From: Candidatus Wirthbacteria bacterium
Lineage (GTDB): Bacteria; Patescibacteriota; CG2-30-54-11
NCBI GenBank assembly: GCA_903889905.1
Contig: CAISZI010000048.1
Location: forward strand, 70,668 to 134,667
Length of the DNA stretch: 64,000 nt
Direction of reading: 5' to 3'
Shown: positions 3,901-64,000 of the stretch, one piece after another
Layout of the letters: the number at the start of each line of letters is the position of its first letter
Position numbering within the stretch: the stretch's first letter is position 1
Made by a program: the position numbers and the translations under genes
The notes under the pieces: generated by a model
What the model saw: only the letters and a program-made list of their open reading frames with translations
Told to the model about the DNA's origin: nothing
Database searches by the model: none

Positions 3901-3979
3901 TGGTGGGCGGTATAGGACTCGAACCTATGACCTTCTGCACGTCAAGCAGACGCTCTAACCAACTGAGCTAACCGCCCCC
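3901..3979 (-). tRNA. tRNA-Val (anticodon GAC), CCA encoded
   Basis: Reverse complement reads GGGGGCGGTTAGCTCAGTTGGTTAGAGCG-TCTGC-TTGACGT-GCAGA-AGGTCATAGGTTCGAGTCCTATACCGCCCACCA. It has a 7-bp acceptor stem, GTTCGAGTC T-loop, and anticodon loop TTGACGT. Confidence 0.85.
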
Positions 3980-25904: not shown

Positions 25905-27101
25905 CTAGCTGGCCAAAGGTCGCCTGACTCGACAAATTAAACTCTTGAGATACGTGCCTTCAGAAAAATACAACGACCTCGGATGATCCGGTGCCTGCGC
26001 TACAATGTCAACCAATTCCAGGGTTACGCCAGCCTGCAGCGAGGCGCGGCGCACGATCAGCTCCAGTTCAGATTGGGGCAAAAAATGTGAACAGCTGGAG
26101 GTAACAAAAATGCCATTATCCTCGACCAGCCGCAATGCCGCCCGGTTCAAAAAGTGGTACGCTTTTTTGCCTGCTTCCAGGTCATGCTGTGACTTGATCA
26201 AGGCCGGCGGGTCCATGATCACCATGCCATACGTCGCAGCAGGTCCGCGATCCAGCCATTGAAAAATATCAGTACACAGCGTGCTGACACGTCCCTCAAA
26301 GCCATTGCGCGCGGATTCGCTGAGCGACTGACTGAGCGCCCATTCCGAACTGTCCACATTCATTACCTCGCTCGCGCCGCCATACAAAGCATAAATAGAG
26401 GTGGCACCGGTATAACTGAACAAATTCAGCACTTTCTTGCCCGCTGCCAGCAACTCAATCCGCTGGCGCAAAACTTTTTGATCCAAAAAAAATCCGGTTT
26501 TCTGGCCCTGGAGTGGATCCACCACAAACGGGTGTTGGTTTTCCATAATGCGAACGCCACCTTCGAGCTCACCCCATCGTATGCCCTGCTCCTGCAACAG
26601 TCCTTCTTCCTGCCGCACCCCGATGTCGCTGCGTTCGACAATTGCCCTTGGCGCAAACAATTCTCGAATCACGTCAATCAGCGTGGGCCGGAACCGTTCC
26701 ATTGCTGCGGTCGATATTTGCATGACCCACACATCGGCATACCGGTCGAGAACAAGTCCTGGCAGTCCATCGACCTCACCAAAGACAACACGATAGGCTG
26801 TTGTCGGCGTTGTCGGGCCAAAACCAGCTTGCAAGCGCCGTGCATAAGCCTGTTCCAGTTGTAATTTTAGCCAGGCGGGCGTGATTTCCACATCGGTGAA
26901 ATCCCACAGACGAACCGCGATCATCGATTGCGAGGAATAACTGCCAACGCCCAGAATGCGGCCATCATGAGCCTCCACCCTGACGAGGTCGCCACTAAGC
27001 AGCGCCTGCGGCAGGACATCGATGGCGCCGGAAAAAACCCAGGGATGGTGATAACTGGCACTGACTTCACGGCCGGATTTCAATTTGATGCTGGGATACA
27101 T
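25905..27101 (-). CDS. rlmI: 23S rRNA (cytosine-C5)-methyltransferase RlmI-like (PUA plus class I SAM MTase)
   Basis: 398 aa. N-terminal PUA-like region, then SAM MTase motifs (LNLFSYTGATSIYA, DPPA). Confidence 0.7.
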   Translation of the reverse strand: MYPSIKLKSGREVSASYHHPWVFSGAIDVLPQALLSGDLVRVEAHDGRILGVGSYSSQSMIAVRLWDFTDVEITPAWLKLQLEQAYARRLQAGFGPTTPTTAYRVVFGEVDGLPGLVLDRYADVWVMQISTAAMERFRPTLIDVIRELFAPRAIVERSDIGVRQEEGLLQEQGIRWGELEGGVRIMENQHPFVVDPLQGQKTGFFLDQKVLRQRIELLAAGKKVLNLFSYTGATSIYALYGGASEVMNVDSSEWALSQSLSESARNGFEGRVSTLCTDIFQWLDRGPAATYGMVIMDPPALIKSQHDLEAGKKAYHFLNRAALRLVEDNGIFVTSSCSHFLPQSELELIVRRASLQAGVTLELVDIVAQAPDHPRSLYFSEGTYLKSLICRVRRPLAS

Positions 27102-53200: not shown

Positions 53201-53326
53201 TTGGCGCCCAAGGATACTGGTTGGGCCGGGGATTTCGTCAAAACAATCGACATGGGACCATTTCATGCCTTGGAAGAGGTCAATGCCAGACTTCTCAACG
53301 AGGGAATCTTCGGAGAATGGGTTCAT
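50207..53326 (-). CDS. hsdR: type I restriction enzyme R (endonuclease/translocase) subunit
   Basis: Start at MNPFSED (ATGA overlap with the upstream gene). N-terminal PD-(D/E)xK, SF2 helicase motifs (HTQGSGKSYSM Walker A, DEAH-like MADEAHRSQ), long C-terminal helical domain. 1039 aa from this start. Confidence 0.85.
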   Translation of the reverse strand: MNPFSEDSLVEKSGIDLFQGMKWSHVDCFDEIPGPTSILGRQIRADVLLLPRLREALTKLNPDVPSQVLNDAIAQLTLDRSTKSLTRANQEVYALIHDGIKVSFKDDQGTEQTVNLRVIDWDNPNDNDFLLVSQLWITGKYYTRRTDLIGYVNGIPLVLIENKSASHSVKEAFDDNIRDYKDTIPQLFWYNAMIILTNGTDSRMGSVSATWEHFSQWKKVEKEDEKPQISLEAMIRGTCDKTRLLDLIENFTLFVEVRGGIAKIVAKNHQFLGVNQAIEVFKAKPKGQGAAGVFWHTQGSGKSYSMIFYSQKIFRKLPGNWTFVVLTDRKELDKQIYQNFAGAGAVSEPEDQVHAESAEHLKKLLHEDHRYVFTLIHKFRDRDLLSDRNDIIVMADEAHRSQYDTLAMNMREGLPHASFIAFTGTPLIKGAGEEKTRETFGDYVSIYNFKQSVDDNATVPLFYENRIPELQLDEQELTDKLDELLEQEELSDEQELKLQRYFSKQYHLITRDERLERIASDIVDHIVGRGYPGKAMIVSIDKLTTYRMFEKVKKYWDAKIKDLRKELYYARDEKLETLETKINFMESTDMAVVVSQGQNEIDDARKYGIDAKPHRDRMNKEDLAEEFKDADHPLRIAFVCAMWMTGFDAQSCSTVYLDRPMKNHTLMQTIARANRVFKTKPNGIIVDYIGVFRNLQKALAIYGADQGGDGEDTPIKEKDEILAELEDRFDKLNTFCAKLGIQAAEMLGKERVELLKLVNNASEALMSSEQTRKDYLEMTQGCYQLYKAVLPDGRVAAYYDRVKLYLTIAENIQSRRPDVDITSIVRKVDGLLDDTIGTTGYSITSPQPMDLSKIDFDKLAKQFEEGRRRHAIDLLQKLLEGKVNHLFEMNRTRIDLVKKFKDMVAEYNAGSHSLEEIYQDLVTFAADLEEEEKRAVREGLSDEEELAIFDLLTKPDPKLNKQEQGDVKKVARELLQKLKDLLVLDWRAKEFARASIEVAIKDSLEHLPAIYDKKLYEEKCGAIFSHVFDGYYGDGKSVF

Positions 53327-53330
53327 GTGA
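53281..53330 (-). repeat. copy A of a ~48-bp direct repeat comprising the hsdR start codon and first 16 codons
   Basis: 53281-53330 is about 84% identical to 54541-54590. Copy A is the authentic hsdR 5' end (MNPFSEDSLVEKSGID). Confidence 0.6.
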
Positions 53331-54453
53331 TGAAACTCAGATAATTTTCTTGATTCACGACCAGAAACGATGCCTCGGGATAGGTGGATTGAAAAATGGC
53401 AGGCGCTTTGGCCGTAGCCTTGCCCCACTTGAACTCGTACGCATCGATCTTGCCACCCTGCTCCTCGATCCAGTCGATCTCCTGCTGGTCATAGGTACGC
53501 CAGAAATAATTGCTCGTAGAAAAATGCTTATAGGTCTGATATTTGATACGCTCGCTAACGAGAAAATTTTCCCAGAGCGCACCCTGGTCATTGCGGGAAT
53601 CGAGCGGATTAAACATACTGATGACGGCATTACGCACACCATTGTCGTAGAAAAAGTATTTGGGCTTGGAGGTTAGTTCTTTGCGCAGGTTGCGGCTGAA
53701 ACCGCCGAGACGGTAGAGGGTGAATGTTTGCTCCAGGAGCCACAGGTAACGCCCAACTGTTTTGACATCGACCTCGAGCTTTTGAGCCAGCTCGGTATAG
53801 GATACCTCTGCCCCGACCTGAAAGGCGACAAGCTTGAGCAGCTTGACCAGAGTCTGCGGGCTACGGACCTGCTCCAGGGCAAATATATCCTTCAGCAGAT
53901 AAGATCCGACTAGATCGAGCAGGTACTCCTCGCGGTCTGCGTCAGTTTTTTGATTGAGCACGTCCGGATAGTTGCCATAGATGAGGTAGGAGGTCAGGGA
54001 CGATTTAAGTTCATAGGGATTGAACCTGGCAGAGAGCTCCATCTGGGACAGAGGATAGAGGTGCAGCGTTTTTTTGCGACCGACCAGCGGCTCACCAACC
54101 TGCCGGGCCAATTCAAAGGAGGACGATCCGGTAGCGATTACCCGGATGGGTTTGATCTGGTCCACGATGATCTTGAGCCCCATGCCGATATAGGGAACCA
54201 TCTGTGCCTCGTCAATCACAATGAGTTCATACCCCGCACAGAATTCCCTGATCCGGTCAAAGTCCTGTGAACCCAACACTTCCCGTACCTGAATATTGTC
54301 TCCAGACACGAGCAGATATTTCCATTTCGTGGTACTCAAGTACCGCTCGATCAGCGTGGTCTTGCCAACCCGACGGGGACCAAAGAGCAAAAGTACTCGA
54401 TTTGGCTCAAGATAGGATTCCAGATCCTGACAGTAGCGGGGTACGTATTCCAT
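53323..54453 (-). CDS. AAA-family ATPase with C-terminal DUF4143 domain
   Basis: 376 aa. Walker A GPRRVGKTT, Walker B VIDEAQ, conserved DUF4143-type C-terminal region. Stop overlaps the hsdR ATG (ATGA). Confidence 0.7.
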   Translation of the reverse strand: MEYVPRYCQDLESYLEPNRVLLLFGPRRVGKTTLIERYLSTTKWKYLLVSGDNIQVREVLGSQDFDRIREFCAGYELIVIDEAQMVPYIGMGLKIIVDQIKPIRVIATGSSSFELARQVGEPLVGRKKTLHLYPLSQMELSARFNPYELKSSLTSYLIYGNYPDVLNQKTDADREEYLLDLVGSYLLKDIFALEQVRSPQTLVKLLKLVAFQVGAEVSYTELAQKLEVDVKTVGRYLWLLEQTFTLYRLGGFSRNLRKELTSKPKYFFYDNGVRNAVISMFNPLDSRNDQGALWENFLVSERIKYQTYKHFSTSNYFWRTYDQQEIDWIEEQGGKIDAYEFKWGKATAKAPAIFQSTYPEASFLVVNQENYLSFIT

Positions 54454-54540: not shown

Positions 54541-54590
54541 AAATGCCGAATTGTTCGACGAGGTAATCTTCGGAGAATTGGTTCATCGTG
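54541..54590 (-). repeat. copy B of the hsdR 5'-end repeat (remnant start MNQFSEDYLVEQFGIS then stop)
   Basis: Minus strand reads ATGAACCAATTCTCCGAAGATTACCTCGTCGAACAATTCGGCATTTCCTTGACTGAATACTAA. This mirrors the hsdR N-terminus. Its ATG overlaps the toxin stop as ATGA, as at the true hsdR junction. Confidence 0.6.
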
Positions 54591-54957
54591 GATACACGCC
54601 TGTTGCTAAAGTCTTCAGAAAATCATCAATTCGTTGCTGAGACTCGCATTCCTGCTGGCCATGCATATAAATCTCGATGAAAACAATTTTTGCAGCGATC
54701 ACCCCAAAGGCAAACACCAGTCTCATCTTGCTTGAACCTTTGAGGCTGCGGACCATGAGGCGGGTCTTGATAATCAATAACTGTCTGGCCGTATCACGAT
54801 GGAGAATATCGTACCGATTATTGTGGTCAAAATCGACACCAACGATAAATTTACGGAAATTATCCAGATCCTGCGTCAGCGAGGCGCATTTTTTGGATAA
54901 TTTTTTCAGATCACGATCAAAAGCCGGCAGTGACTCGAACTCAAATCTCGTCGTCAT
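54583..54957 (-). CDS. RelE/ParE-superfamily toxin (Panacea-associated toxin, PanT)
   Basis: 124 aa. FxFxxxFxRDLKKLSKK N-terminus and …KMRLVFAF…IEIYMHGQQ C-terminal region typical of RelE/ParE/HigB. 17-nt overlap with the upstream antitoxin gene. Confidence 0.5.
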   Translation of the reverse strand: MTTRFEFESLPAFDRDLKKLSKKCASLTQDLDNFRKFIVGVDFDHNNRYDILHRDTARQLLIIKTRLMVRSLKGSSKMRLVFAFGVIAAKIVFIEIYMHGQQECESQQRIDDFLKTLATGVYPR

Positions 54958-55684
54958 ACTGCCTCACCGAGTAGGGATCATTGCGATAGAAAACACTTTC
55001 GTAGGAAATTTCCTCGCCGTCGTCGTGCGCCAGCCAGGGGACATCGCCATGCGAGTAGTCACTCAATTCCTTCGCCGATTTGTCTGCAAGTTGGGTCAGC
55101 ACACGATCAATCAGATCGAGCTCACGACCACTCAGTTTGGTCAAGTCAGCCACAGCGCGAGGCAGGAATTTGCGCTGGTCAAACATAAAATATTTGCTTT
55201 TGACTTCCTCCATCTCACCGTCCTGCTTCATTTGCTCAATCACCTTGATAAACTCTTTTGGGGTGGGACCATGAAGATTTTTGATATAGGTGAGGCCCAT
55301 GAGCTGTTCTTCGTATTTTTCGTAGTAGTCAAAATCGATGAAGTACAGCAATTTGTACAAAACTGTGAGACCCACGTTGGGTTTGGCGCCCACCTTGCCC
55401 AGGATATAGAGCAGGACCTGTTTGAATTTGTCCAGATGCTGCTGGGGGATATCGATGCGCATGGTCGAAGGAACGCTGGCAGGCGAAGTAGCGGCTGCCA
55501 GCGAAAAAATCTGCTCCAGTTTTTCACGTTCGGCGAGGGTCAGCGGACGCTTGCCTTGTTCAATTTTGACCAAAGTCGGACGGGAGACACCGAGCCGCGT
55601 GGCCAATTCTTGCTGCGACATGTGATATTGCTGGCGTAGTGAATGGATTTCGATGGTGGTTGGGGTAGTCATTGGAGTATCCAC
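54941..55684 (-). CDS. XRE-HTH plus Panacea (DUF4065, SocA-like) domain antitoxin
   Basis: 247 aa. HTH LRQQYHMSQQELATRLGVSRPTLVKIEQGKR, then a DUF4065-type domain (VLYKLLYFIDFDYYEKYEEQLMGLTYIKNLHGP). Confidence 0.6.
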   Translation of the reverse strand: MDTPMTTPTTIEIHSLRQQYHMSQQELATRLGVSRPTLVKIEQGKRPLTLAEREKLEQIFSLAAATSPASVPSTMRIDIPQQHLDKFKQVLLYILGKVGAKPNVGLTVLYKLLYFIDFDYYEKYEEQLMGLTYIKNLHGPTPKEFIKVIEQMKQDGEMEEVKSKYFMFDQRKFLPRAVADLTKLSGRELDLIDRVLTQLADKSAKELSDYSHGDVPWLAHDDGEEISYESVFYRNDPYSVRQYDDEI

Positions 55685-55718: not shown

Positions 55719-55748
55719 ACAATACATGGATAGCGAAACAATGTCAAT
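55719..55748 (-). promoter_or_regulatory. candidate promoter TTGACA-N18-TATTGT for the PanA-toxin pair
   Basis: Minus strand cattGACAttgtttcgctatccatgTATTGTtatt in the 77-bp hsdS-panA spacer. Confidence 0.3.
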
Positions 55749-55761
55749 GTTTACAAATATT

Positions 55762-56901
55762 TTACAATAATTTTACAGAGACCTCTCCACTCATCAATCT
55801 TGGCAATAACAAATTCCTCGTTATTCTAAAATTTTGGCTCTGCAAGTGAAGCTTCTGAATCAAGTCAAACATTGGCCTGACAAGTTTTGAAAATCGATCC
55901 AGACAAATAACCGGAGGTTGCGAGAGCAAGTATTGGTTGAAGCAACTTTCCTGCACGCGTTGGCGTCCAGACGCCCCCGTCATGCTCTTTATTGCATGTT
56001 TTCGAAATTCGTCACTACGAGCCAATAAATATACATACTCAGGTGTAAGTGAATGTGATCGCATAACAATATATTCTGTCGATCCAAAAGCCACCGCTTT
56101 CTCGTCAGGCAGAAATTGCACAAAACCCGTTTTACCATTTTCCAGACAGGGTGTTATCCTCGCAAGTAGTGTGTCTCTATTTTGAAATTTAGCACCGCTA
56201 TTGCCTGTTCGAGATTCAACATCGGTGATTATTATTGAATCCGTTGAAAGACATCCCATTGGGACAAACGCCTTTTCTCCATCACGGGGAACAGATACTC
56301 TTGGGTTAAAATCAACACATTCAACCACTTTCTTCACCTCCCACCCCTCCGGCACCATCCCCAATTCCGTCCCCGAATCCACCATTTTGACCTTCTCATG
56401 CCCCGGGAACCGGAACTCCACAAACCACTCCCGATAGAGCCGCCTCGCCATTTCTTCCAGGATCTGGATGCGGCGGGTGTTGTTTTCGATTAGGTCGTCG
56501 TAAGCGGAAAGAATGGAGGCGATTTTCTTTTGAACATGCAATACTGGAACATCGATCTCAATCGTCGACAAATGATTTCGATTTAATGTTGGTACTCCTG
56601 CGCCTGCGTTGAAACGAGAAAAATCTAATCCAATCAATTTAAAATATACATATCTAGGGTCATTGCCCTTGAAATCCTTAACCCAAAGAGACGTATTATG
56701 GGGCCAGTACGGATCTTTAACATATTGAACCGTTCCTAACGATCCGCTGCGTCCAATTACAACGCCAGGGGCATCCGCTTTAAATTCATGATGATACCCG
56801 ATTATCGAAGTGGATCCGACCACTGGATAAATACCATCATTCATATTGATTCTTGTAAGATCGAAACCCCTTTGTAGAGTAATGAAATCATCAAGTCTCA
56901 T
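55762..56901 (-). CDS. hsdS: type I restriction-modification specificity subunit (two TRDs)
   Basis: 379 aa. Two target-recognition domains separated by conserved helical repeats (…LEEMARRLYREWFVEFRFPGHE…, C-terminal …NLLLPRLMSGEV). Confidence 0.8.
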   Translation of the reverse strand: MRLDDFITLQRGFDLTRINMNDGIYPVVGSTSIIGYHHEFKADAPGVVIGRSGSLGTVQYVKDPYWPHNTSLWVKDFKGNDPRYVYFKLIGLDFSRFNAGAGVPTLNRNHLSTIEIDVPVLHVQKKIASILSAYDDLIENNTRRIQILEEMARRLYREWFVEFRFPGHEKVKMVDSGTELGMVPEGWEVKKVVECVDFNPRVSVPRDGEKAFVPMGCLSTDSIIITDVESRTGNSGAKFQNRDTLLARITPCLENGKTGFVQFLPDEKAVAFGSTEYIVMRSHSLTPEYVYLLARSDEFRKHAIKSMTGASGRQRVQESCFNQYLLSQPPVICLDRFSKLVRPMFDLIQKLHLQSQNFRITRNLLLPRLMSGEVSVKLL

Positions 56902-57706
56902 CCGGATTCTCCATTTTCTTTAACTTTTCACCCTCAATTCTCTTCCCCGCTTTTTGGACACTATCGGGCGTCGGCAGCTGTTCGGGCATGGTGCCGCCTA
57001 GTTCTTTGATCGTCTCCCGCACCTTTTTGCCGACTTGCAGGTGGGTCAGATTGGCTTTGTCCTGACCTTTGATGCCTTCTCTCCTGAGCTTGGCTTCTGC
57101 CTGCGTCGCCCGGAATAAGTTAGCGGCCAGCTCTTCACTGCCCATGTGGTCGAGGATTTGCTGGTTTTTTTTGAGTTGTTTGCGTGCATGAATGTCTTTT
57201 TGGGACAACCCGCCGTATAGCCCCATGTAGCCGTAATTTTGAAACGTCCCAAAACTGACCACACCGGCATCGTCAGCAGCCTTGGCCAGTTTTTTGTTGT
57301 GCGTTTTCATTTCTTCGCGTAGCAAAACCCGTTTGTGATCCTCGATCATCTGATCCGCCACTTCTTGCCGGTGCGTCTGGATGGCAAAGTAAGTTTGCCC
57401 CAGCGCGACGATTTCTTTGGACGGATCGGCATTCTGAACGATCAGATAGCAGGCATAGCGAGACAACCGGATATCTTCGACCTGCCGCCTGGCTCCTGAG
57501 CCAATTTCGACCATATCGTGCACATCCTCGAAATGGTCTGCAATTGCTTGACCACTGTTTTGGCAGGCAATCTTGGCTTTATCAATAACTGGCACGAAGA
57601 AACGATACTCGGAATACCCCAAAATTTTGGAAAGTTCCCTCGCTGACCAGTATTCGGACTGATATTCATTGACCTTCTTGATCGCATCGAACTGGTTGCT
57701 GGTCAT
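56891..57706 (-). CDS. dinD: DNA-damage-inducible protein D (DinD; BRO-N/KilA-N-like)
   Basis: 271 aa. N-terminus …EYWSARELSKILGYSEYRFFVPVIDKAKIAC…SRYACYLIVQNADPSKEIVALGQTYFAIQTHRQE matches DinD. Sits between hsdM and hsdS with 11-nt and 4-nt junctions. Confidence 0.65.
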   Translation of the reverse strand: MTSNQFDAIKKVNEYQSEYWSARELSKILGYSEYRFFVPVIDKAKIACQNSGQAIADHFEDVHDMVEIGSGARRQVEDIRLSRYACYLIVQNADPSKEIVALGQTYFAIQTHRQEVADQMIEDHKRVLLREEMKTHNKKLAKAADDAGVVSFGTFQNYGYMGLYGGLSQKDIHARKQLKKNQQILDHMGSEELAANLFRATQAEAKLRREGIKGQDKANLTHLQVGKKVRETIKELGGTMPEQLPTPDSVQKAGKRIEGEKLKKMENPDET

Positions 57707-57709
57707 CTA

Positions 57710-59266
57710 TTACTCCTTGTGATTAGTAAAAATTAGCGCAACGTTCTTACTGATGGTTTCTTCCAGCCCATTCGCCTCAGTAGTCAGAAGCTCGAATTCA
57801 TCGTTAAGAGTCCTCAACTTGGCCTTGAAATCCTCATCACTGACTACTTCGCCATCGGCAATTCCAACATATAGCCCTGGATTTAGGGACCAACCTTGCG
57901 CCACGATTTCCGTAGCCGTCGCTACTTTGCAAAGCCCCTTCACATCCCGATATTTGCCGTCCGGAAAATTGGCTTTAAGCAAAGCATTATCAGAGTATTC
58001 CGGCACTTTCCCCCGATACATCCGGACAATGTCTGACAAAAACTGCAAATGTTCTTCCCCAAACTCCCGATGCGCTCGATCTACCTGCACGAAGTGATGC
58101 CGGGCATCGAGAAATAGAACATTGTCTTTGCGGTCCTGTGGCTTGCCCTTGTCCAAAAACCACAAAGTACAAGGCAACGTCACCGTATCAAAAAAATTGG
58201 GAGATATAGCTACCATCACATCTACATGCCCAGCTTCGATTAACTTCTGGCGGATCGCCATCTCACTATTGCGCGCATCGCTGGCAGAATTGGCCATGAC
58301 GAACCCGGCACGCCCAGTCTGATTGAGCGGGCTATAGAACTGCTGTATCCATAGGTAATTGGCATTGGACGTGGACGGCATCCCAAATGGAAACCGTTGC
58401 CGATCATCCTTCATCCGGTCCTTGTCCGCACCTTCATTATTGAATGGCGGATTAGCCATCACGAAGTCGCAGCGCCCGACGGCATGATGAGGATCTTCAT
58501 AGTAGCTGTTGCCGGTACGAATATCGCCATTGAGCCCATGGATGGCCAGGTTCATCTTAGCAAGGTTGGTATTGGAGGTCGTCAGCTCCTGCCCAATGAT
58601 CGAAAGCTCCGAGATAGGATTGTGCTGATGCCGTGCAACGAAGTCCGCACTTTGGACAAACATGCCACCCGATCCGCAAGCCGGGTCATAAATCACCCCA
58701 TGGTAGGGCTCGATAATCTCGACAATCAGCTTGACCAAAGATGTCGGGGTAAAGAACTCCCCACCCTTTTCCCCAGACTTCTTGTGAAACTTGCCCAGGA
58801 AGTACTCATAGATCTTGCCAAAGACATCGCCTTCAACCTCAGTCATCTCCGTGCTGTTAAACGTTTTGAGCAAGTTTAGTAGCACCTTCTTGTCTATCCG
58901 GGCATATCCGCGAGGTAAAACGCCCTTCAAATCAGTATTTTCTTTCTCTATCTCCTCCATCGCGTGGTCTACTGCCTTGGCAACATCATCACCATCCGTG
59001 AGGTTGATTAAATAAGAATAACGGGCCTCGGGAGTCAAATAGATCGCCCGACGCGCCAAAAAGTCCGCCTTGCCCACGGTTCGACGGCTGGAAGTGGCTT
59101 GCGAGCTTAGTTCCTGCTCAATCCGGGTAAATTTGACGTCTGCATATTTCAAAAAAATAAGACCCAAAACCGGCATCGTGTATTCCGATGGTTTCAGGTC
59201 CGCATTTCCCCACAATTGCTCAGCCGATTCCCACAAAGTGGCTTCGAGTTGTTTGTTATAGGTCAT
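57710..59266 (-). CDS. hsdM: type I restriction-modification N6-adenine DNA methyltransferase subunit
   Basis: 518 aa. N-terminal HsdM_N, SAM motif [10 protein letters not shown], catalytic NPPF. Confidence 0.85.
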
Positions 59267-59290
59267 TCATTTCCTCGTAATTAAATCACT

Positions 59291-59343
59291 ACCGCCATTA
59301 TAGACTTCTGCATTAACCGCAGCAAATGTATACAAACCAGCCG
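59291..59343 (-). promoter_or_regulatory. hsdM promoter (TTGCTG-N17-TATAAT) inside a ~55-bp module repeated upstream of rhuM
   Basis: Minus strand GGTTTGTATACATTTGCTGCGGTTAATGCAGAAGTCTATAATGGCGGTAGTG. The -10 is ~30 nt upstream of the hsdM ATG. About 84% identical to 61795-61851. Confidence 0.5.
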
Positions 59344-59371
59344 ATATTGTCAATATTATTGTTGACAATAT
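59344..59371 (+). promoter_or_regulatory. perfect 10-bp inverted repeat (ATATTGTCAA-N8-TTGACAATAT) overlapping a TTGACA -35 box upstream of mmpA; candidate operator
   Basis: Lies between divergent hsdM and mmpA. A nearby half-site-like direct repeat AATATTATTG occurs at 59352 and 59388. Confidence 0.4.
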
Positions 59372-59416
59372 ACAATATATAGTAAATAATATTATTGACT
59401 AATTCAAAGGAATCCC

Positions 59417-59881
59417 ATGAACACCCGCACCACCCAACTCGCCCGCACCCAGCTTGACGCCACGCTCAAGCCTCTAACCAAACTTGCCTCGACTTCCCGC
59501 CCACCCAAAGGCTGGATCCGCGCCATCCGCAATGCCCTGGGCATGAGTGGCGAGCAATTGGCGCGTCGTCTCGGCCTGACCAAACAGCGCATCGGCCGCA
59601 TCGAACAAGACGAAGCTGGGGATGGCATCACCTTCAAAACCATGCGCCATGTCGCCGAGGCGCTGGATTGTCATTTTGTCTATGCACTCATCCCCCGCAC
59701 CAGCCTCGAACAGTCCGTCCGAGACCAGGCTGCCAAAGTTGCTGCCAAACGACTGGCGCAAGTAAGCCACTCAATGATGCTCGAGAACCAACAGCTAACT
59801 GATGCAAATCAAACAAAAGCCTTGCAGTCCGAGGTCGAACGACTTATTGCCTCTTTGCCACGGACACTCTGGGATGACTAA
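59417..59881 (+). CDS. mobile mystery protein A (HTH-XRE family, TIGR02612-like)
   Basis: 154 aa. PKGWIRAIRNALGMSGEQLARRLGLTKQRIGRIEQDE…ITFKTMRHVAEALDCHFVYALIPRTSLE matches the mobile-mystery-protein-A pattern. Confidence 0.6.
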   Translation: MNTRTTQLARTQLDATLKPLTKLASTSRPPKGWIRAIRNALGMSGEQLARRLGLTKQRIGRIEQDEAGDGITFKTMRHVAEALDCHFVYALIPRTSLEQSVRDQAAKVAAKRLAQVSHSMMLENQQLTDANQTKALQSEVERLIASLPRTLWDD

Positions 59882-60458
59882 ATCAAATTCCTTCGGCACC
59901 ACCCCGATATCGCCGGATGAGCTGGACGGACTCAAACTGACCCATATCACTACAACGGAACAGCTCAATCGCTTCGAACAGGACAACATCACTGAGGCCA
60001 TGGACTGGCTCTCACGCCGTAAACCAACCAAGATATTGAACGAATCCTTTCTCAAATCCCTGCACCAGCATATGTTTGGGCTGGTGTGGAAATGGGCCGG
60101 AAAATTCCGCGCCACCGACAAAAATATTGGCATTCCGTGGCAATACATCGCGGTAGAAGTCCGCAAATTATGTGACGATACGCAATTTCAGATCGACCAT
60201 CAATCCTACTCACCCGATGAGATCGCTGCGCGCTTTCATCACCGCCTGGTACAGATCCATCCATTTCCAAACGGTAATGGCCGCCATAGCCGACTGATAA
60301 CAGACATTCTGCTGCAAAATGTATTACAGAAGCCGCCTTTCACCTGGGGCGGTGCAGCACTGCGTGACGCCGACGATCCTCGGCGTCAATATATTGGTGC
60401 GCTGCAAATGGCGGACAAGGGAGACATGGAAGCGCTGATGAAATTCGTGCGGTCCTGA
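59874..60458 (+). CDS. mobile mystery protein B (Fic-domain protein, TIGR02613-like)
   Basis: Start MTKSNS overlaps the mmpA stop by 8 nt. Fic motif HPFPNGNGRHSRL. ~194 aa. Confidence 0.65.
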   Translation: MTKSNSFGTTPISPDELDGLKLTHITTTEQLNRFEQDNITEAMDWLSRRKPTKILNESFLKSLHQHMFGLVWKWAGKFRATDKNIGIPWQYIAVEVRKLCDDTQFQIDHQSYSPDEIAARFHHRLVQIHPFPNGNGRHSRLITDILLQNVLQKPPFTWGGAALRDADDPRRQYIGALQMADKGDMEALMKFVRS

Positions 60459-60491
60459 GAAACAAGAAAAAACCATTTCCCGCGTTCTTTC

Positions 60492-61769
60492 CTATCTCTT
60501 GAGCATCATCATCACCAACCCAATCATCCTCTCCTTGTCCACCGGTTTGCTCTCGGCAATCAGCAGTGTCAGTGCGGTCAGGGCTTCGGGTGTAATCCGG
60601 GTCATGTCCAGCAGCCGCGCCCGTAGCAATAACCAGACAAAGGCAAACGCACCCGAGCGCTTGTTGCCATCGAATTCGATGGAATCAAAATCAGGATTAT
60701 GCAATTTCTCCCATAGCCCCAAAAACTAGATCGTGCCGGATTTGTATTGGTAGATGACCAGGCCTTGTTGGGGGGTATTCTTTGGCATGGTTACTTCTTC
60801 TCGGCTTTAGTGATTGGAGTCTTGAGGTATTTCTGGGCGACTCGGTCAAAATCCGACTCAAATGATCTATCCTGATCGATTCTGAACTCGTCGTATTCCT
60901 TCTCGGCTAGTTGCTTGGCGACGTCCGATGAAATCTTGCCGGAATCGGCCAATATCTCATAATCATTGAATTGCAAAAATGCGTCCAGCCTGATAGCCCA
61001 ATCTTTCATGGTCATGGTCTTGTGGCGTTCGGCCTGGGATTCGGCGTAATACGGAAACATCGGTTTTGAGGATTTTTCCTTTGGGACTGTTCTTCCAAGT
61101 TGTCAGGCCCATGTGCGGCCTGGAACTACTCGCACGTGAGGCGACGATCTCGGCGGCAGTGTGACCAGTGATGGCCCAGTGCAATTTGTTCTGGACGGTT
61201 TGGTAGAATTGGTGGGTGATGTCGGCCTTGGGGTCATAATCAATACTGCATTGCGCGTAGATATCGGTGATTTTTTGATAAAACCGCCGCTCCGACGCCC
61301 GGATTTCACGAATTCGTTCGAGTAACTGATCAAAGTAATCCTTGCCAAAGAAGTTGCCGTTTTTGAGACGCTCGTCGTCAAGGACAAAGCCCTTGATGAT
61401 AAATTCCCGAAGCGTTGTGGTTGCCCAGATGCGAAATTGAGTCGCTTTTTGGGAATTGACACGATAACCGACGGAAATGATGGCGTCGAGGTTGTAAAAA
61501 TTGGGTTCCCTCTCAACCATTCTCTCGCCTTCTTTTTGAACTATTCGAATTTTTCGAATAGTTGCCGCTTCATCTAGCTCGCCGCTCGCAAAAATCTCCT
61601 GGAGATGGTAGTTCACCGTATTAACTTCCACATCAAACAATTCAGCCATGGCTTTTTGGGTCAGCCAGACAGTTTCGTTTTGAACCAACACCTCCATTTT
61701 CACGTCGCCGTCGGGTGTCGTGTAGAGAAGAAATTGTGAAGATTGCGTCACGAGTTCTTTTTTTGCCAT
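60492..61769 (-). pseudogene. rhuM: disrupted rhuM-doc (RhuM/Fic-DOC) fusion gene carrying at least two frame changes
   Basis: The 61769-60963 frame encodes the RhuM N-terminal ~230 aa (…NLDAIISVGYRVNSQKATQFRIWATTTL…). The RhuM C-terminus (KDWAIRLDAFLQFNDYEILADSGKISSDVAKQLAEKEYDEF) continues in another frame (61060-60791). A Doc/Fic core remnant (IEFDGNKRSGAFAFVWLLL…) lies in a third frame (60722-60492). Confidence 0.5.
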
Positions 61770-61794
61770 AGGTCCCTCTGGTTATTTTATCCGC

Positions 61795-61851
61795 ACTGCC
61801 GTCATTATAAACTTCCGCACTTACCCCAGCAAATGTAAACAAACCGCTCGG
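61795..61851 (-). promoter_or_regulatory. rhuM promoter (TTGCTG-N17-TATAAT); second copy of the module found upstream of hsdM
   Basis: Minus strand CGGTTTGTTTACATTTGCTGGGGTAAGTGCGGAAGTTTATAATGACGGCAGTG. The -10 is ~35 nt upstream of the rhuM ATG at 61769. Confidence 0.5.
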
Positions 61852-62120
61852 CTAAAGAATCGGGCAAAAAAACACCCAACCAGGGTGGTTCAAAATGACT
61901 TCTTCGGCAATAGCCACAAGCCGATTCGATCTAAGCTCACGGTCCAAGACGAGCTCCGCGAGTCGAATGGCTGGGCCACTTGGTTTAGAACCAGAAATGA
62001 GACATTTGGGACAGTATAAAAAAGGGTGTCTCAATTTGTGAGTAAGCAAGCAAGTAAGTTGTCTTATCGGAAGTTTAATGGTATTTTATTAGTATCGCCA
62101 AACTCCAATTGAGGTAGTCT

Positions 62121-63212
62121 TTGTATACTCCCAAATTCACCATTACCACATCTATTGCCCAGGCATTGATGCGGATAGAAGCACACAAACAAGCGATAAG
62201 CGACCTGCCTATCACGCCGGATGTCCTGCTCCATCTGCGGGAAACCGCGCGTCTTGCAACGACTCATTATTCGACTGCGATTGAAGGTAATGACCTGGAA
62301 GAAGTAGAGGTTAAAAAAGTTATCCAGGGATCATCCAACATTCAGGGAAAAGAACGTGACACCGCAGAAGTCAAAGGCTATTATGCCGCACTCCAGAGAG
62401 TAGAACGACTCGCTGGAAAAAAATACCCTACCGAAAAGGATATCCAGACTATCCATGCACTCGTGATCGGTGGTGGCAGAAACCAGGTGAAACCTACACT
62501 CTATCGGACAGAACAGAACGTCATCAAAGACAGTCGATCCGGGACAATAGTCTACCTGCCACCCGAGGAAAAAGACGTTCCCCAGCTTATGGAGGATCTT
62601 GTTCTCTGGATAAAAAGCAGTTTGTACGAGCAGATCCCTCTACCACTCCGTGCTGGCATCGCCCATTATCAGTACGTCACGATCCACCCCTATCTGGATG
62701 GTAATGGCAGAACCGCCCGCCTGCTCACTACACTCATCGCTCATCAAGGCGGATATGATTTAAAAGGTATCTTTTCTGTGGAGGAATACTATGTGCAGAG
62801 CCTCCAACAATACTACGATGCCCTCTCACTCGGACTTTCCCATAATTATTACTTCGGCAGGCATGAAGCAGATATCACTCCCTGGCTAGAATACTTCTGC
62901 GCTGGAATGGCGGAAAGCTTTGATAAAATTCATCGTCAGGCGCAGAAGGCTGCAAAGGCAGGGCAACAGGATTTCTCACCCATTCTCCGTGACTTGGATC
63001 CGAGGCAACGAAAAGTACTGAGTCTATTCGTTCACAGTACCAGGATCACGACACGAGAGATCGCCACTTGTCTGAATATTTCGACCCGCGCTGCCAGTGC
63101 ATGGTGTCAAAAATGGGTCAATGACGGATTCCTTCGGATCATGAATCCAGCCAAAAGGAATCGTTCGTATGCACTGGGAAAGCAGTACGAAAGTTTGGTT
63201 GTTTATAGCTGA
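62121..63212 (+). CDS. Fic-family protein (Fic/DOC adenylyltransferase-like with C-terminal wHTH)
   Basis: 363 aa. Fic motif HPYLDGNGRTARLL. N-terminal inhibitory-helix-like segment (…TAIEGN…). C-terminal winged-helix region. Confidence 0.75.
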   Translation: MYTPKFTITTSIAQALMRIEAHKQAISDLPITPDVLLHLRETARLATTHYSTAIEGNDLEEVEVKKVIQGSSNIQGKERDTAEVKGYYAALQRVERLAGKKYPTEKDIQTIHALVIGGGRNQVKPTLYRTEQNVIKDSRSGTIVYLPPEEKDVPQLMEDLVLWIKSSLYEQIPLPLRAGIAHYQYVTIHPYLDGNGRTARLLTTLIAHQGGYDLKGIFSVEEYYVQSLQQYYDALSLGLSHNYYFGRHEADITPWLEYFCAGMAESFDKIHRQAQKAAKAGQQDFSPILRDLDPRQRKVLSLFVHSTRITTREIATCLNISTRAASAWCQKWVNDGFLRIMNPAKRNRSYALGKQYESLVVYS

Positions 63213-63218
63213 GATCTG

Positions 63219-64000
63219 ATGATAACCATCACTGACGAATACCTTGATCTTTATGCCTCTCTCTTTCGTGGTCGAGAGGAAACTTACGCACGCCATTGGG
63301 AAAAAAATGGGAGAAGCGGATACAGTCCTGCCTACGATCTGGACTGGTCAAAATTCATGGCGTTCAAAGCTCAGGGTGGATCGCTGAAAGACTTCCCAGA
63401 CAAAACACCTTTGCCGCTATCTCGGCTAGTGATCAAAAATCACCTCCTGGGAAAGCATGCGATCGGTATCTATCCACTCCTCGAGAATAATGAATCGTAT
63501 TTTATTGCTGCCGATTTCGATGGGCAGGATTGGATAGGCGAAAGTCGAGAACTCCTCAATTCATGCAAAGCCTATGGGCTGCCAGCGTATCTTGAGAGAT
63601 CACGATCGGGAGGAGGGGCGCATATCTGGTTATTTTTCGCGAATTCTTATCCAGCTGCAAAAAGCAGGCAGATCATCTTTGCACTCTTACGAAAAGTCTT
63701 GCACGTTTCTGAATTTGATAAGGAAATCAGTTTTGACCGGGTGTTTCCAAACCAGGATTATCATTCCGGCAAGGGGTTCGGTAACCTCATCGCCCTGCCG
63801 CTGAACGGAATTTCAGCAGACCAAGGAAACAGTGTTTTTCTGGATCCAGAAAACCTCACACCCTATACAGATCAATGGGAATACCTTTCGCATGTGGAAC
63901 GGATAAGTTCCGACACTCTCGACCGAGTGCTTGATCGAATTGCTGGTTATAGCCCCTTCAAAACGACAGTACGTGGAACGACAGAACCTCAAGCGTCTCT
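63219..64000 (+). CDS. 5' portion of a TOTE-like conflict-system protein: archaeo-eukaryotic primase (AEP) domain (gene runs off the window)
   Basis: Open frame from ATG 63219 to the window end (260 aa, no stop). Sequence …LFRGREETYARHWEKNGRSGYSPAY…FIAADFDGQDW…AYLERSRSGGGAHIWLFF…FDRVFPNQD…GFGNLIALPLNG closely follows the conserved blocks of TOTE AEP-domain proteins. Confidence 0.55.
   Translation, partial: MITITDEYLDLYASLFRGREETYARHWEKNGRSGYSPAYDLDWSKFMAFKAQGGSLKDFPDKTPLPLSRLVIKNHLLGKHAIGIYPLLENNESYFIAADFDGQDWIGESRELLNSCKAYGLPAYLERSRSGGGAHIWLFFANSYPAAKSRQIIFALLRKVLHVSEFDKEISFDRVFPNQDYHSGKGFGNLIALPLNGISADQGNSVFLDPENLTPYTDQWEYLSHVERISSDTLDRVLDRIAGYSPFKTTVRGTTEPQAS

What the first reader, a model, noticed from the sequence alone, without database searches (positions are those of the whole stretch)
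59291..59343. ~55-bp promoter module shared by hsdM and rhuM (second copy at 61795-61851)
Two minus-strand genes 2.5 kb apart are preceded by near-identical sequence (GGTTTGTWTACATTTGCTGsGGTAAnTGCrGAAGTyTATAATGrCGG). Each contains TTGCTG-N17-TATAAT at the right distance from its ATG. A shared module implies co-regulation, possibly via a common binding site overlapping the -35, or promoter duplication during island assembly.
Basis: seen in the sequence. Interest (0 to 1): 0.5.

Follow-up and report, generated by a model that had tools for sequence, protein, structure and literature searches.

The report
Duplicated promoter in a restriction-modification island
A 52-base promoter-like sequence really does occur twice, once in front of a restriction-modification operon and once in front of a broken neighbouring gene, and it is most likely an ordinary promoter that was duplicated when mobile genes were inserted, not a new regulatory system.

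Summary
A 52-nt direct repeat (59287-59338 and 61794-61845, sense on the minus strand) is 85% identical (44/52). It has sharp borders and exactly two copies in 64 kb, far beyond chance. Each copy ends 20-24 nt before a start codon (hsdM; frameshifted rhuM). Each carries an invariant TTGCTG-N17-TATAAT that ranks in the top 13 of about 128,000 positions on a simple sigma-70 matrix. Five of the eight mismatches lie in the spacer.

The two copies bracket a 2.46-kb segment holding a 'mobile mystery protein A/B' (HTH + Fic) pair and the decayed rhuM. In the same operon, a second diverged repeat of about 45 nt (the first 15 codons of hsdR) brackets an inserted DUF4143 ATPase gene.

The best reading is one promoter region duplicated during cassette insertion or recombination in a type I R-M defence island, with both copies probably still active.

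There is no positive evidence for a dedicated regulator. No dyad is conserved, there are no RptR sites, no single-strand structure, and no further copies.

The module was absent from pattern scans of genome, metagenome and viral collections, and from the upstream regions of the closest hsdM (79%) and rhuM (77%) homologues. The host lineage has no close relatives, so no comparative test was possible. Interest is modest.

The parts
59287..59338 (-). Module copy 1 (52 nt), directly upstream of hsdM; -35 TTGCTG 59325-59320, -10 TATAAT 59302-59297, predicted start near 59290
61794..61845 (-). Module copy 2 (52 nt, 85% identical), directly upstream of rhuM; -35 TTGCTG 61832-61827, -10 TATAAT 61809-61804, predicted start near 61797
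57710..59266 (-). hsdM, first gene of a type I R-M operon that runs on through dinD-like (56891-57706), hsdS (55762-56901), HTH-SocA/Panacea (54941-55684), a 124-aa ORF, a DUF4143 ATPase and hsdR (to 50207)
60791..61769 (-). rhuM, split by one frameshift (60963-61769 covers RhuM profile positions 1-167; 60791-61060 covers 189-249)
59417..60458 (+). Mobile mystery protein A (HTH, 59417-59881) and B (Fic, 59874-60458), transcribed away from hsdM; this lies inside the segment bracketed by the two module copies
   Evidence: TIGR02612 180.8 bits, cutoff 122.6; TIGR02613 248.4 bits, cutoff 124.4
59344..59371 (.). Perfect 10-nt inverted repeat ATATTGTCAA-N8-TTGACAATAT overlapping the predicted mob_myst A promoter (TTGACA-N17-AATAAT), 6 nt from module copy 1. 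Likely operator of the A/B pair; found at copy 1 only. With the module's TACATT it also forms a second promoter-like site facing hsdM
61873..61887 (-). Terminator-like hairpin CACCCTGGTTGGGTG followed by T7, ending 20 nt upstream of module copy 2
54542..54586 (-). Orphan copy of the first 15 codons of hsdR (MNQFSEDYLVEQFGI, then a stop after 20 codons); its ATG overlaps the stop of the 124-aa ORF
53282..53326 (-). The matching first 15 codons of the intact hsdR (MNPFSEDSLVEKSGI), 82% identical to the orphan copy; the ATG overlaps the stop of the DUF4143 ATPase gene
53323..54453 (-). AAA_14/DUF4143 ATPase gene bracketed by the two hsdR 5' copies, with its own TTGACG-N17-TATAAT (-10 at 54495-54490), the best-scoring promoter-like site of the window

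Best explanation
The two copies are one sigma-70-type promoter region present twice. The region comprises about 13 bp upstream, -35 TTGCTG, a 17-bp spacer, -10 TATAAT and about 10 bp reaching the transcription start. Copy 1 heads the hsdM-dinD-hsdS-...-hsdR type I restriction-modification operon. Copy 2 heads rhuM, now a frameshifted gene. The duplication is a by-product of how this defence island was built. The copies are direct repeats bracketing a 2,455-bp segment (59339-61793) that carries a mobile mystery protein A/B (HTH + Fic) cassette and rhuM. DNA inserted or recombined in front of hsdM therefore left a promoter copy on each side: hsdM keeps a promoter, and the first gene reading out of the inserted block gets one too. 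Both copies are probably plain, RNA-polymerase-recognised promoters; any shared behaviour would follow simply from their being the same promoter. Shown: the repeat, its borders and geometry, the gene identities, the bracketing arrangement, and the second junction duplication at hsdR. Inferred: promoter activity, the order of events and the mechanism of duplication.
For: The repeat is real with sharp borders. The hexamers are invariant and 5 of the 8 mismatches lie in the 17-nt spacer. Both sites score 11.5 bits and rank within the top 13 of 127,940 positions. The other top-ranking sites sit in front of other island genes (DUF4143 ATPase, HTH-SocA, mob_myst A), so this consensus is meaningful here. 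Both copies end 20-24 nt before a start codon with a Shine-Dalgarno sequence. A terminator-like hairpin lies just upstream of copy 2, marking a new transcription unit. The bracketed genes are a recognised mobile pair plus a decayed gene. A parallel case exists in the same operon: 45 nt of the hsdR start, 82% identical, bracket an inserted ATPase gene, and translational coupling (ATGA) is preserved at both copies. Direct-repeat pairs of local sequence also flank mob_myst A/B in 8 of 62 other genomes, above an unrelated-pair control. There is no single-strand structure and no Rfam hit. The module does not travel with hsdM (79% homologue) or rhuM (77% homologue), nor with mob_myst A/B.
Against: No transcription start data exist, so promoter activity is inferred only. 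The -35 matches the consensus at 3 of 6 positions, and the tool's stricter consensus scan did not list these sites. The enrichment of mismatches in the spacer is not significant (Fisher p 0.06-0.10). Conservation of the 13 bp upstream of the -35 (12/13) and of the 10 bp after the -10 (8/10) is higher than a minimal promoter needs. With only two copies at 85% identity, that could be shared ancestry or an extra binding site. The bracketed segment contains no recombinase. The longest identical run between the copies is 11 nt, which is short for homologous recombination. The canonical ends seen for mob_myst A/B inserts elsewhere (about 300 nt upstream of A; 1-4 nt after B) do not coincide with the module here. 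Repeat pairs around A/B in other genomes have mixed causes; one borders a transposase.
Confidence: 0.55

Rival explanations
1. Two heads of related operons, not a local duplication. The module is the conserved promoter of a family of type I R-M or defence operons in the donor lineage. One operon (module-hsdM...) is intact. Of the other only its head (module-rhuM) survives, the rest having been deleted or replaced by the mob_myst A/B insertion. The 15% divergence then reflects divergence between two acquired alleles.
For: RhuM, DinD-like and Fic genes are commonly embedded in type I R-M loci (PMC9881135). rhuM is decaying. 85% identity with no longer identical core suits diverged alleles better than a fresh duplication. 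The -10-to-ATG leader of hsdM is the best match among 53 window leaders to the leader of the 79%-identical hsdM of L005, a weak hint that copy 1 is native to hsdM. The hsdR 5' duplication at 82% looks like the same kind of event.
Against: tblastn with HsdM, HsdS and HsdR finds no remnant of a second hsd operon between rhuM and the A/B pair, or beyond. The module was not found in front of any other hsdM or rhuM in the collections. The closest homologues have unrelated upstream regions.
Confidence: 0.2
2. Shared operator. The module, or its conserved non-hexamer parts (GGTTTGTWTACATT upstream of the -35; GRCGGYAGTG after the -10), is the binding site of a transcription factor that co-regulates hsdM and rhuM, as repressors do for other defence islands.
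For: Conservation outside the hexamers is high: 12/13 upstream and 8/10 downstream. HTH proteins are encoded nearby (mob_myst A; HTH-SocA). Precedent: RptR represses the promoter of a type I R-M island through repeats overlapping the -10 (PMC12255303).
Against: No dyad or direct-repeat architecture is conserved in both copies; TGTATACA is a palindrome only in copy 1. The sub-motif does not recur at other promoters of the island or window beyond chance. RptR sites (TAGCTA and variants) are absent from both modules, and no small regulator gene precedes hsdM. The obvious operator, a 10-nt inverted repeat at 59344-59371, is present at copy 1 only. One of the two supposedly regulated genes is a pseudogene.
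Confidence: 0.13
3. Recombination site. The repeats are attL/attR-like or Campbell-type scars of a mobile 2.46-kb element. The promoter-like hexamers are incidental, or are simply the target that was hit.
For: These are direct repeats of about 50 nt bracketing accessory genes of a family named for its mobility. Comparable brackets occur in L067 (48 nt, 87.5%), L070 (143 nt, 97%) and L094 (57 nt, 95%). A similar bracket of about 45 nt surrounds the DUF4143 gene.
Against: No integrase or other recombinase lies in or next to the bracketed segment. The module has no inverted-repeat or hairpin structure. The repeat sequences differ in every genome, so they are target-derived rather than element-encoded. 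The perfectly placed and perfectly conserved -10/-35 in front of two start codons would be a coincidence.
Confidence: 0.1
4. Chance resemblance of two AT-rich promoter regions, or an assembly artefact.
For: None beyond the fact that promoters share hexamers.
Against: 44/52 identities including G+C-rich stretches; expectation about 3e-8; 0 of 100 shuffles. The copies differ at 8 positions, so this is not a collapsed or duplicated assembly segment. Copy 1 is confirmed in an independent contig.
Confidence: 0.01

Closest known systems
Canonical sigma-70 (housekeeping) promoter, TTGACA-N17-TATAAT
   Same: Perfect -10, TTG of the -35, optimal 17-bp spacer, short leader with a Shine-Dalgarno sequence, and an AT-rich stretch where an UP element would lie.
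   Different: The -35 matches at only 3/6 positions. Activity is not measured. The organism is an uncultured, deeply branching lineage whose promoter consensus is not independently known.
RptR-repressed promoter of type I R-M defence islands (EPEC RRDM island; PMC12255303)
   Same: A single promoter at the head of a type I R-M operon that has accessory defence or toxin genes embedded between the hsd genes; a conserved sequence block around the -10.
   Different: There is no rptR-like small gene upstream of hsdM. No TAGCTA/TAGATA/TATCTA/TATATA sites lie in either module. Here the conserved block is a whole promoter present twice at two genes, not repeats within one promoter.
Direct repeats flanking inserted islets (attL/attR of integrative elements; duplications left by single-crossover or homology-facilitated illegitimate recombination)
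   Same: Imperfect direct repeats of about 50 nt made of local target sequence bracket horizontally mobile genes. The copy next to the resident gene restores what the insertion would have cut off.
   Different: No recombinase gene, no identical core longer than 11 nt, and no tRNA or other usual target. The repeat happens to be a complete promoter.
C-protein / C-box control of type II R-M operons
   Same: An HTH (XRE-type) protein is encoded next to an R-M promoter region.
   Different: The palindromic site lies outside the shared module and at one copy only. The HTH here belongs to a mob_myst A/B pair, not to the R-M operon.
Integron attC sites and dispersed intergenic repeats (REP/MITE)
   Same: Repeated short sequences between gene cassettes.
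   Different: There is no hairpin or imperfect palindrome (z-scores 0.2-1.5), only two copies, and the repeats lie 5' rather than 3' of the genes.

Membership tests
Sigma-70-type promoter | -10 hexamer close to TATAAT | tested here: met
   TATAAT 6/6 in both copies.
Sigma-70-type promoter | -35 hexamer close to TTGACA at 16-18 bp spacing | tested here: inconclusive
   TTGCTG (3/6, the TTG retained) at 17 bp. This fails the tool's 4-of-6 rule, but the combined matrix score ranks within the top 13 of 127,940 positions.
Sigma-70-type promoter | Placed upstream of a gene start, with a leader of plausible length | tested here: met
   The -10 ends 30 nt before the hsdM ATG and 34 nt before the rhuM ATG, with GAGGAA / AGAGGGA before the starts.
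Sigma-70-type promoter | Transcription initiates 6-8 nt downstream of the -10 | not testable with these tools
   No transcript data; the organism is uncultured.
RptR-regulated type I R-M island promoter | rptR-like small (about 79 aa) regulator gene as first gene of the island | tested here: not met
   The 150-nt hsdM upstream region holds no such ORF; the divergent gene is mob_myst A. No RptR sequence search was run.
RptR-regulated type I R-M island promoter | Two or more 6-bp sites (TAGCTA, TAGATA, TATCTA, TATATA) in the promoter | tested here: not met
   None in either module; a single TATATA at 59376 lies outside the module.
Integrative-element att repeats | Direct repeats flanking the inserted DNA | tested here: met
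   52-nt direct repeats bracket 59339-61793.
Integrative-element att repeats | Integrase or other recombinase encoded within or beside the element | tested here: not met
   Pfam/NCBIfam hits of all ORFs from 50 to 64 kb show no recombinase.
Integrative-element att repeats | Identical core where strand exchange occurs | tested here: inconclusive
   The longest identical runs are 11 and 7 nt. This is enough for some tyrosine recombinases, but nothing marks it as a core.
Integron attC / structured repeat | Imperfect palindrome folding as a single strand | tested here: not met
   Folding energies are no better than shuffles on either strand.
Known RNA family (leader, riboswitch, sRNA) | Match to an Rfam covariance model | tested here: not met
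   The only Rfam hit in the window is tRNA-Val at 3904-3977. Only about 5-10 nt of the module would be transcribed.
Mobile mystery protein A/B cassette (the bracketed genes) | Paired TIGR02612 and TIGR02613 genes scoring above the curated cutoffs | tested here: met
   180.8 bits (cutoff 122.6) and 248.4 bits (cutoff 124.4); the pairing is conserved in 75 of 80 homologous loci.

The most novel reading that the evidence does not exclude
The module could be one instance of an undescribed way in which accessory cassettes enter type I R-M operons. In this reading, insertion duplicates about 45-55 bp of the 5' boundary of the downstream hsd gene: the hsdM promoter here, and the first 15 codons of hsdR for the DUF4143 ATPase. 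A 48-bp repeat around mob_myst A/B next to hsdR in a Pseudohongiella genome would be a third case. The resident gene keeps its expression signals, and the incoming block acquires a copy. That would imply a dedicated, possibly trans-acting, insertion mechanism with long target duplications, rather than occasional illegitimate recombination.
Probability: 0.1. Interest if true: 0.65.

Novelty: new member of a known kind. Interest (0 to 1): 0.25.

Why it matters
If the reading is right, the locus shows how a defence island is assembled without silencing its resident restriction-modification operon. Mobile genes landed in front of hsdM, and a copy of the promoter ended up on both sides. The same signature sits at the hsdR start. 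This is useful for annotating the island (transcription units, pseudogene, insertion borders), and it cautions against reading every shared upstream block as a regulon. It does not open a new question by itself. The more general idea, that cassettes enter hsd operons with long duplications of the downstream gene's 5' boundary, would be of interest but rests on three to five cases.

Tried and rejected
- **Collection scans for further copies.** A 22-base pattern found 0 hits in genome contigs and 0 in metagenome contigs. A 19-base pattern found 3 viral and 22 metagenome hits, all chance: flanks are unrelated and only 2-9 of the 25 other conserved positions match. blastn against plasmids found nothing.
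- **Does the module travel with its genes?** The closest hsdM (79%, L005/L006) and rhuM (77%, L011-L016) have unrelated upstream regions. 80 loci with mob_myst A homologues lack the module.
- **Rest of the source genome.** The 135-kb source contig is known to the protein index but could not be fetched, so other copies in the same genome could not be sought.
- **Taxonomy.** A housekeeping rRNA methyltransferase has no hit above 56% identity, so no relatives exist for comparison.
- **Structured RNA or attC reading.** Rejected.
- **Sigma-54, sigma-28 and Bacteroidota-type promoter readings.** Considered by eye and rejected on spacing; the genes also use Shine-Dalgarno sequences.
- **RptR operator.** Rejected.
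- **Remnants of a second hsd operon near rhuM.** None found. The small ORFs at 60492-60722 and 61852-62049 have no family hits.
- **Contig breaks as a sign of population variation.** Contigs from other samples break at 59294 and 61973, but another contig spans copy 1 with the same arrangement. The breaks are therefore uninformative.
- **Generalising the repeat bracket around mob_myst A/B.** Only 8 of 62 loci show it, and the causes are mixed.

Full report
**Observation**

On the minus strand, the 52 nt at 59338-59287 read GGTTTGTATACATTTGCTGCGGTTAATGCAGAAGTCTATAATGGCGGTAGTG. The 52 nt at 61845-61794 read GGTTTGTTTACATTTGCTGGGGTAAGTGCGGAAGTTTATAATGACGGCAGTG. They align without gaps at 44/52 identity. 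Outside these 52 nt the two regions are unalignable.

Each half of the module, searched with up to three mismatches, hits only these two places. Shuffles give 0.03 and 0.00 expected hits. An nhmmer profile of the two copies finds nothing else in the window. A binomial estimate over all pairs of positions gives about 3e-8. The repeat is therefore real, is a direct repeat, and has exactly two copies in 64 kb. A contig from another sample (L009) carries copy 1 in the same context at 99.9% identity.

**Anatomy**

Copy 1 ends 20 nt before the ATG of hsdM (57710-59266, minus strand; HsdM_N and N6_Mtase). hsdM opens a long co-oriented block:
- a DinD-like Bro-N protein;
- hsdS;
- an HTH-SocA/Panacea protein;
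- a 124-aa ORF;
- an AAA_14/DUF4143 ATPase;
- hsdR.

Copy 2 ends 24 nt before the ATG of a RhuM-family gene. That gene is interrupted by one frameshift: 60963-61769 covers the first two thirds of the family profile, and 60791-61060 covers the rest in another frame.

Between the two copies, on the other strand, lie an HTH gene (59417-59881) and a Fic gene (59874-60458). They match 'mobile mystery protein A' and 'B' above NCBIfam's curated cutoffs. A perfect 10-nt inverted repeat (59344-59371) overlaps this pair's predicted promoter. It starts 6 nt from copy 1 and has no counterpart at copy 2. A terminator-like hairpin with a T7 run ends 20 nt upstream of copy 2. Beyond it, a 363-aa Fic protein and a PrimPol-like gene read away on the plus strand.

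**Promoter reading**

Both copies contain TTGCTG, a 17-nt spacer and TATAAT. The consensus scan offered by the tools did not list them, because the -35 matches at only 3 of 6 positions. I therefore scored every position of the window with a simple two-hexamer matrix, using E. coli base frequencies recalled from the literature. That matrix is my own approximation, not a curated model.

Both sites score 11.5 bits and rank within the top 13 of 127,940 positions. The best sites of the whole window sit in front of other island genes:
- the DUF4143 ATPase (TTGACG-N17-TATAAT);
- the HTH-SocA gene;
- mob_myst A.

So this consensus picks out plausible transcription-unit starts in this DNA.

The eight mismatches between the copies are distributed as follows:

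| Region of the module | Mismatches / positions |
|---|---|
| 13 nt upstream of the -35 | 1 / 13 |
| The two hexamers | 0 / 12 |
| Spacer | 5 / 17 |
| 10 nt after the -10 | 2 / 10 |

This is the pattern expected of a promoter under selection, but it is not significant with so few sites (p 0.06-0.10). The predicted starts (about 59290 and 61797) leave leaders of 24-28 nt that contain Shine-Dalgarno sequences. Neither strand of the module folds better than shuffled sequence, and Rfam finds nothing there. A structured RNA or a hairpin recombination site is therefore unlikely.

**Where else is it?**

Nowhere that I could search.
- A 22-base degenerate pattern found nothing in the genome or metagenome collections.
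- A looser 19-base pattern found 3 viral and 22 metagenome matches. These agree with the module at chance level elsewhere (2-9 of the 25 other conserved positions).
- The nearest HsdM in 5.8 billion proteins, apart from a 100% copy on a 2-kb contig, is 79% identical. The nearest RhuM is 77% identical. Neither has the module upstream, and their upstream regions do not align with those of the window better than shuffles do.
- A housekeeping rRNA methyltransferase of the window has no relative above 56% identity.

The 135-kb source contig could not be retrieved, so other copies elsewhere in the same genome remain possible.

**Why it is duplicated**

Three observations point to island assembly rather than a regulon.

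1. The copies are direct repeats bracketing 2,455 bp that hold a gene pair known for sporadic, mobile distribution plus a decaying gene.

2. The same operon has a second bracket of the same kind. The first 45 nt of hsdR (ATGAACCCATTC..., MNPFSEDSLVEKSGI, 53326-53282) recur at 82% identity at 54586-54542 (MNQFSEDYLVEQFGI, closed by a stop after 20 codons). Between the two lies the DUF4143 ATPase gene with its own strong promoter-like site. In both places the ATG overlaps the stop codon of the preceding gene. That is an insertion or recombination joint which duplicated the 5' boundary of the downstream hsd gene, exactly as the module does for hsdM.

3. Among 62 genomes with mob_myst A/B homologues and enough flank, 8 have a direct-repeat pair of local sequence around the pair, above an unrelated-pair control. 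In L067 the pair sits next to hsdR and a DUF4143 gene, with a 48-nt repeat at 87.5% identity. In L070 a 143-nt repeat at 97% includes the whole upstream region of the neighbouring divergent gene. The causes are mixed, however: the repeat in L095 borders a transposase. In addition, the tight insert ends seen in L067 and L070 do not coincide with the module in the window. I use this as supporting context only.

**Origin scenarios**

I cannot tell whether the duplication arose in place, as a target duplication or a single-crossover integration of a circle carrying a diverged copy, or whether two related operon heads were brought together.
- The 85% identity with no identical run longer than 11 nt fits diverged alleles, or an old event with selection on the hexamers.
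- No remnant of a second hsd operon was found.
- The stretch from the -10 to the ATG of hsdM is the best match among 53 leaders of the window to the leader of the 79%-identical hsdM of L005. The margin over the runner-up is one point, so this is only a hint that copy 1 is native to hsdM.

**Regulation**

- TGTATACA is a palindrome in copy 1 only.
- Motifs derived from the upstream block do not mark other promoters.
- The one described repressor of type I R-M defence islands, RptR, binds TAGCTA-type repeats over the -10 and is encoded as the first gene of the island (PMC12255303). Neither the sites nor such a gene are present here.
- The literature does confirm that RhuM, DinD-like and Fic genes are habitual passengers inside type I R-M loci (PMC9881135).

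**Verdict**

The repeat is real and specific. It is most likely an ordinary promoter that exists twice because mobile genes were spliced in front of hsdM, and both copies probably still fire. It is a new example of a known kind of thing. The recurrent duplications of about 45-55 nt at the 5' boundaries of hsd genes are the only part that might lead somewhere new.

Noticed in passing
window 53282-53326 and 54542-54586 (minus strand): The first 15 codons of hsdR are present twice (82% identical). The upstream copy is an orphan 20-codon ORF. The two copies bracket the AAA_14/DUF4143 ATPase gene, and both ATGs overlap the stop of the preceding gene (ATGA). The longest hsdR ORF starts at GTG 53428, but the real start is probably ATG 53326.
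   Followed up: partly
L067 3660-5095; L070 2774-4430; L094 3407-5875 (genome loci with mob_myst A/B): Mobile mystery protein A/B pairs are flanked by direct repeats of local, genome-specific sequence in 8 of 62 loci. In L067 and L070 the insert is 1340 and 1371 nt, starts about 300 nt upstream of A, and ends 1-4 nt after the B stop codon, suggesting a discrete mobile unit with long target duplications. L095's repeat borders a DDE transposase, so the causes are not uniform.
   Followed up: partly
window 60791-61769 (minus strand): rhuM is split by a single frameshift around 60963-61060. It is otherwise well conserved (77% identity to full-length homologues of about 340-350 aa), so this is either a recent pseudogene or an assembly error.
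   Followed up: partly
window 59325-59353 (minus strand): A second promoter-like site faces hsdM (TTGACA-N17-TACATT, second-best score in the window). It is formed by one arm of the mob_myst A inverted repeat and the TACATT inside module copy 1. It has no counterpart at copy 2.
   Followed up: no
window 55740-55785 (minus strand): Three direct TGTAAA repeats at 11-nt spacing lie immediately upstream of a TTGACA-N17-TATTGT site in front of the HTH-SocA/Panacea gene. This may be an operator or UP-like element of that antitoxin-type gene pair (with the unannotated 124-aa ORF 54583-54957).
   Followed up: no
window 62121-64000 (plus strand): A 363-aa Fic-domain protein is followed, 6 nt later, by a PrimPol-like gene that runs off the window end (partial match to the CRISPR-associated primase-polymerase model, below its cutoff). 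This may be another defence or mobile module adjoining the R-M island.
   Followed up: no
whole window: The host has no close relatives in the searched collections. A housekeeping 23S rRNA methyltransferase (25905-27101) has a best hit of 56% identity among 5.8 billion proteins. Near-identical short contigs occur in ENA metagenome assemblies labelled BUCK21-1.
   Followed up: partly
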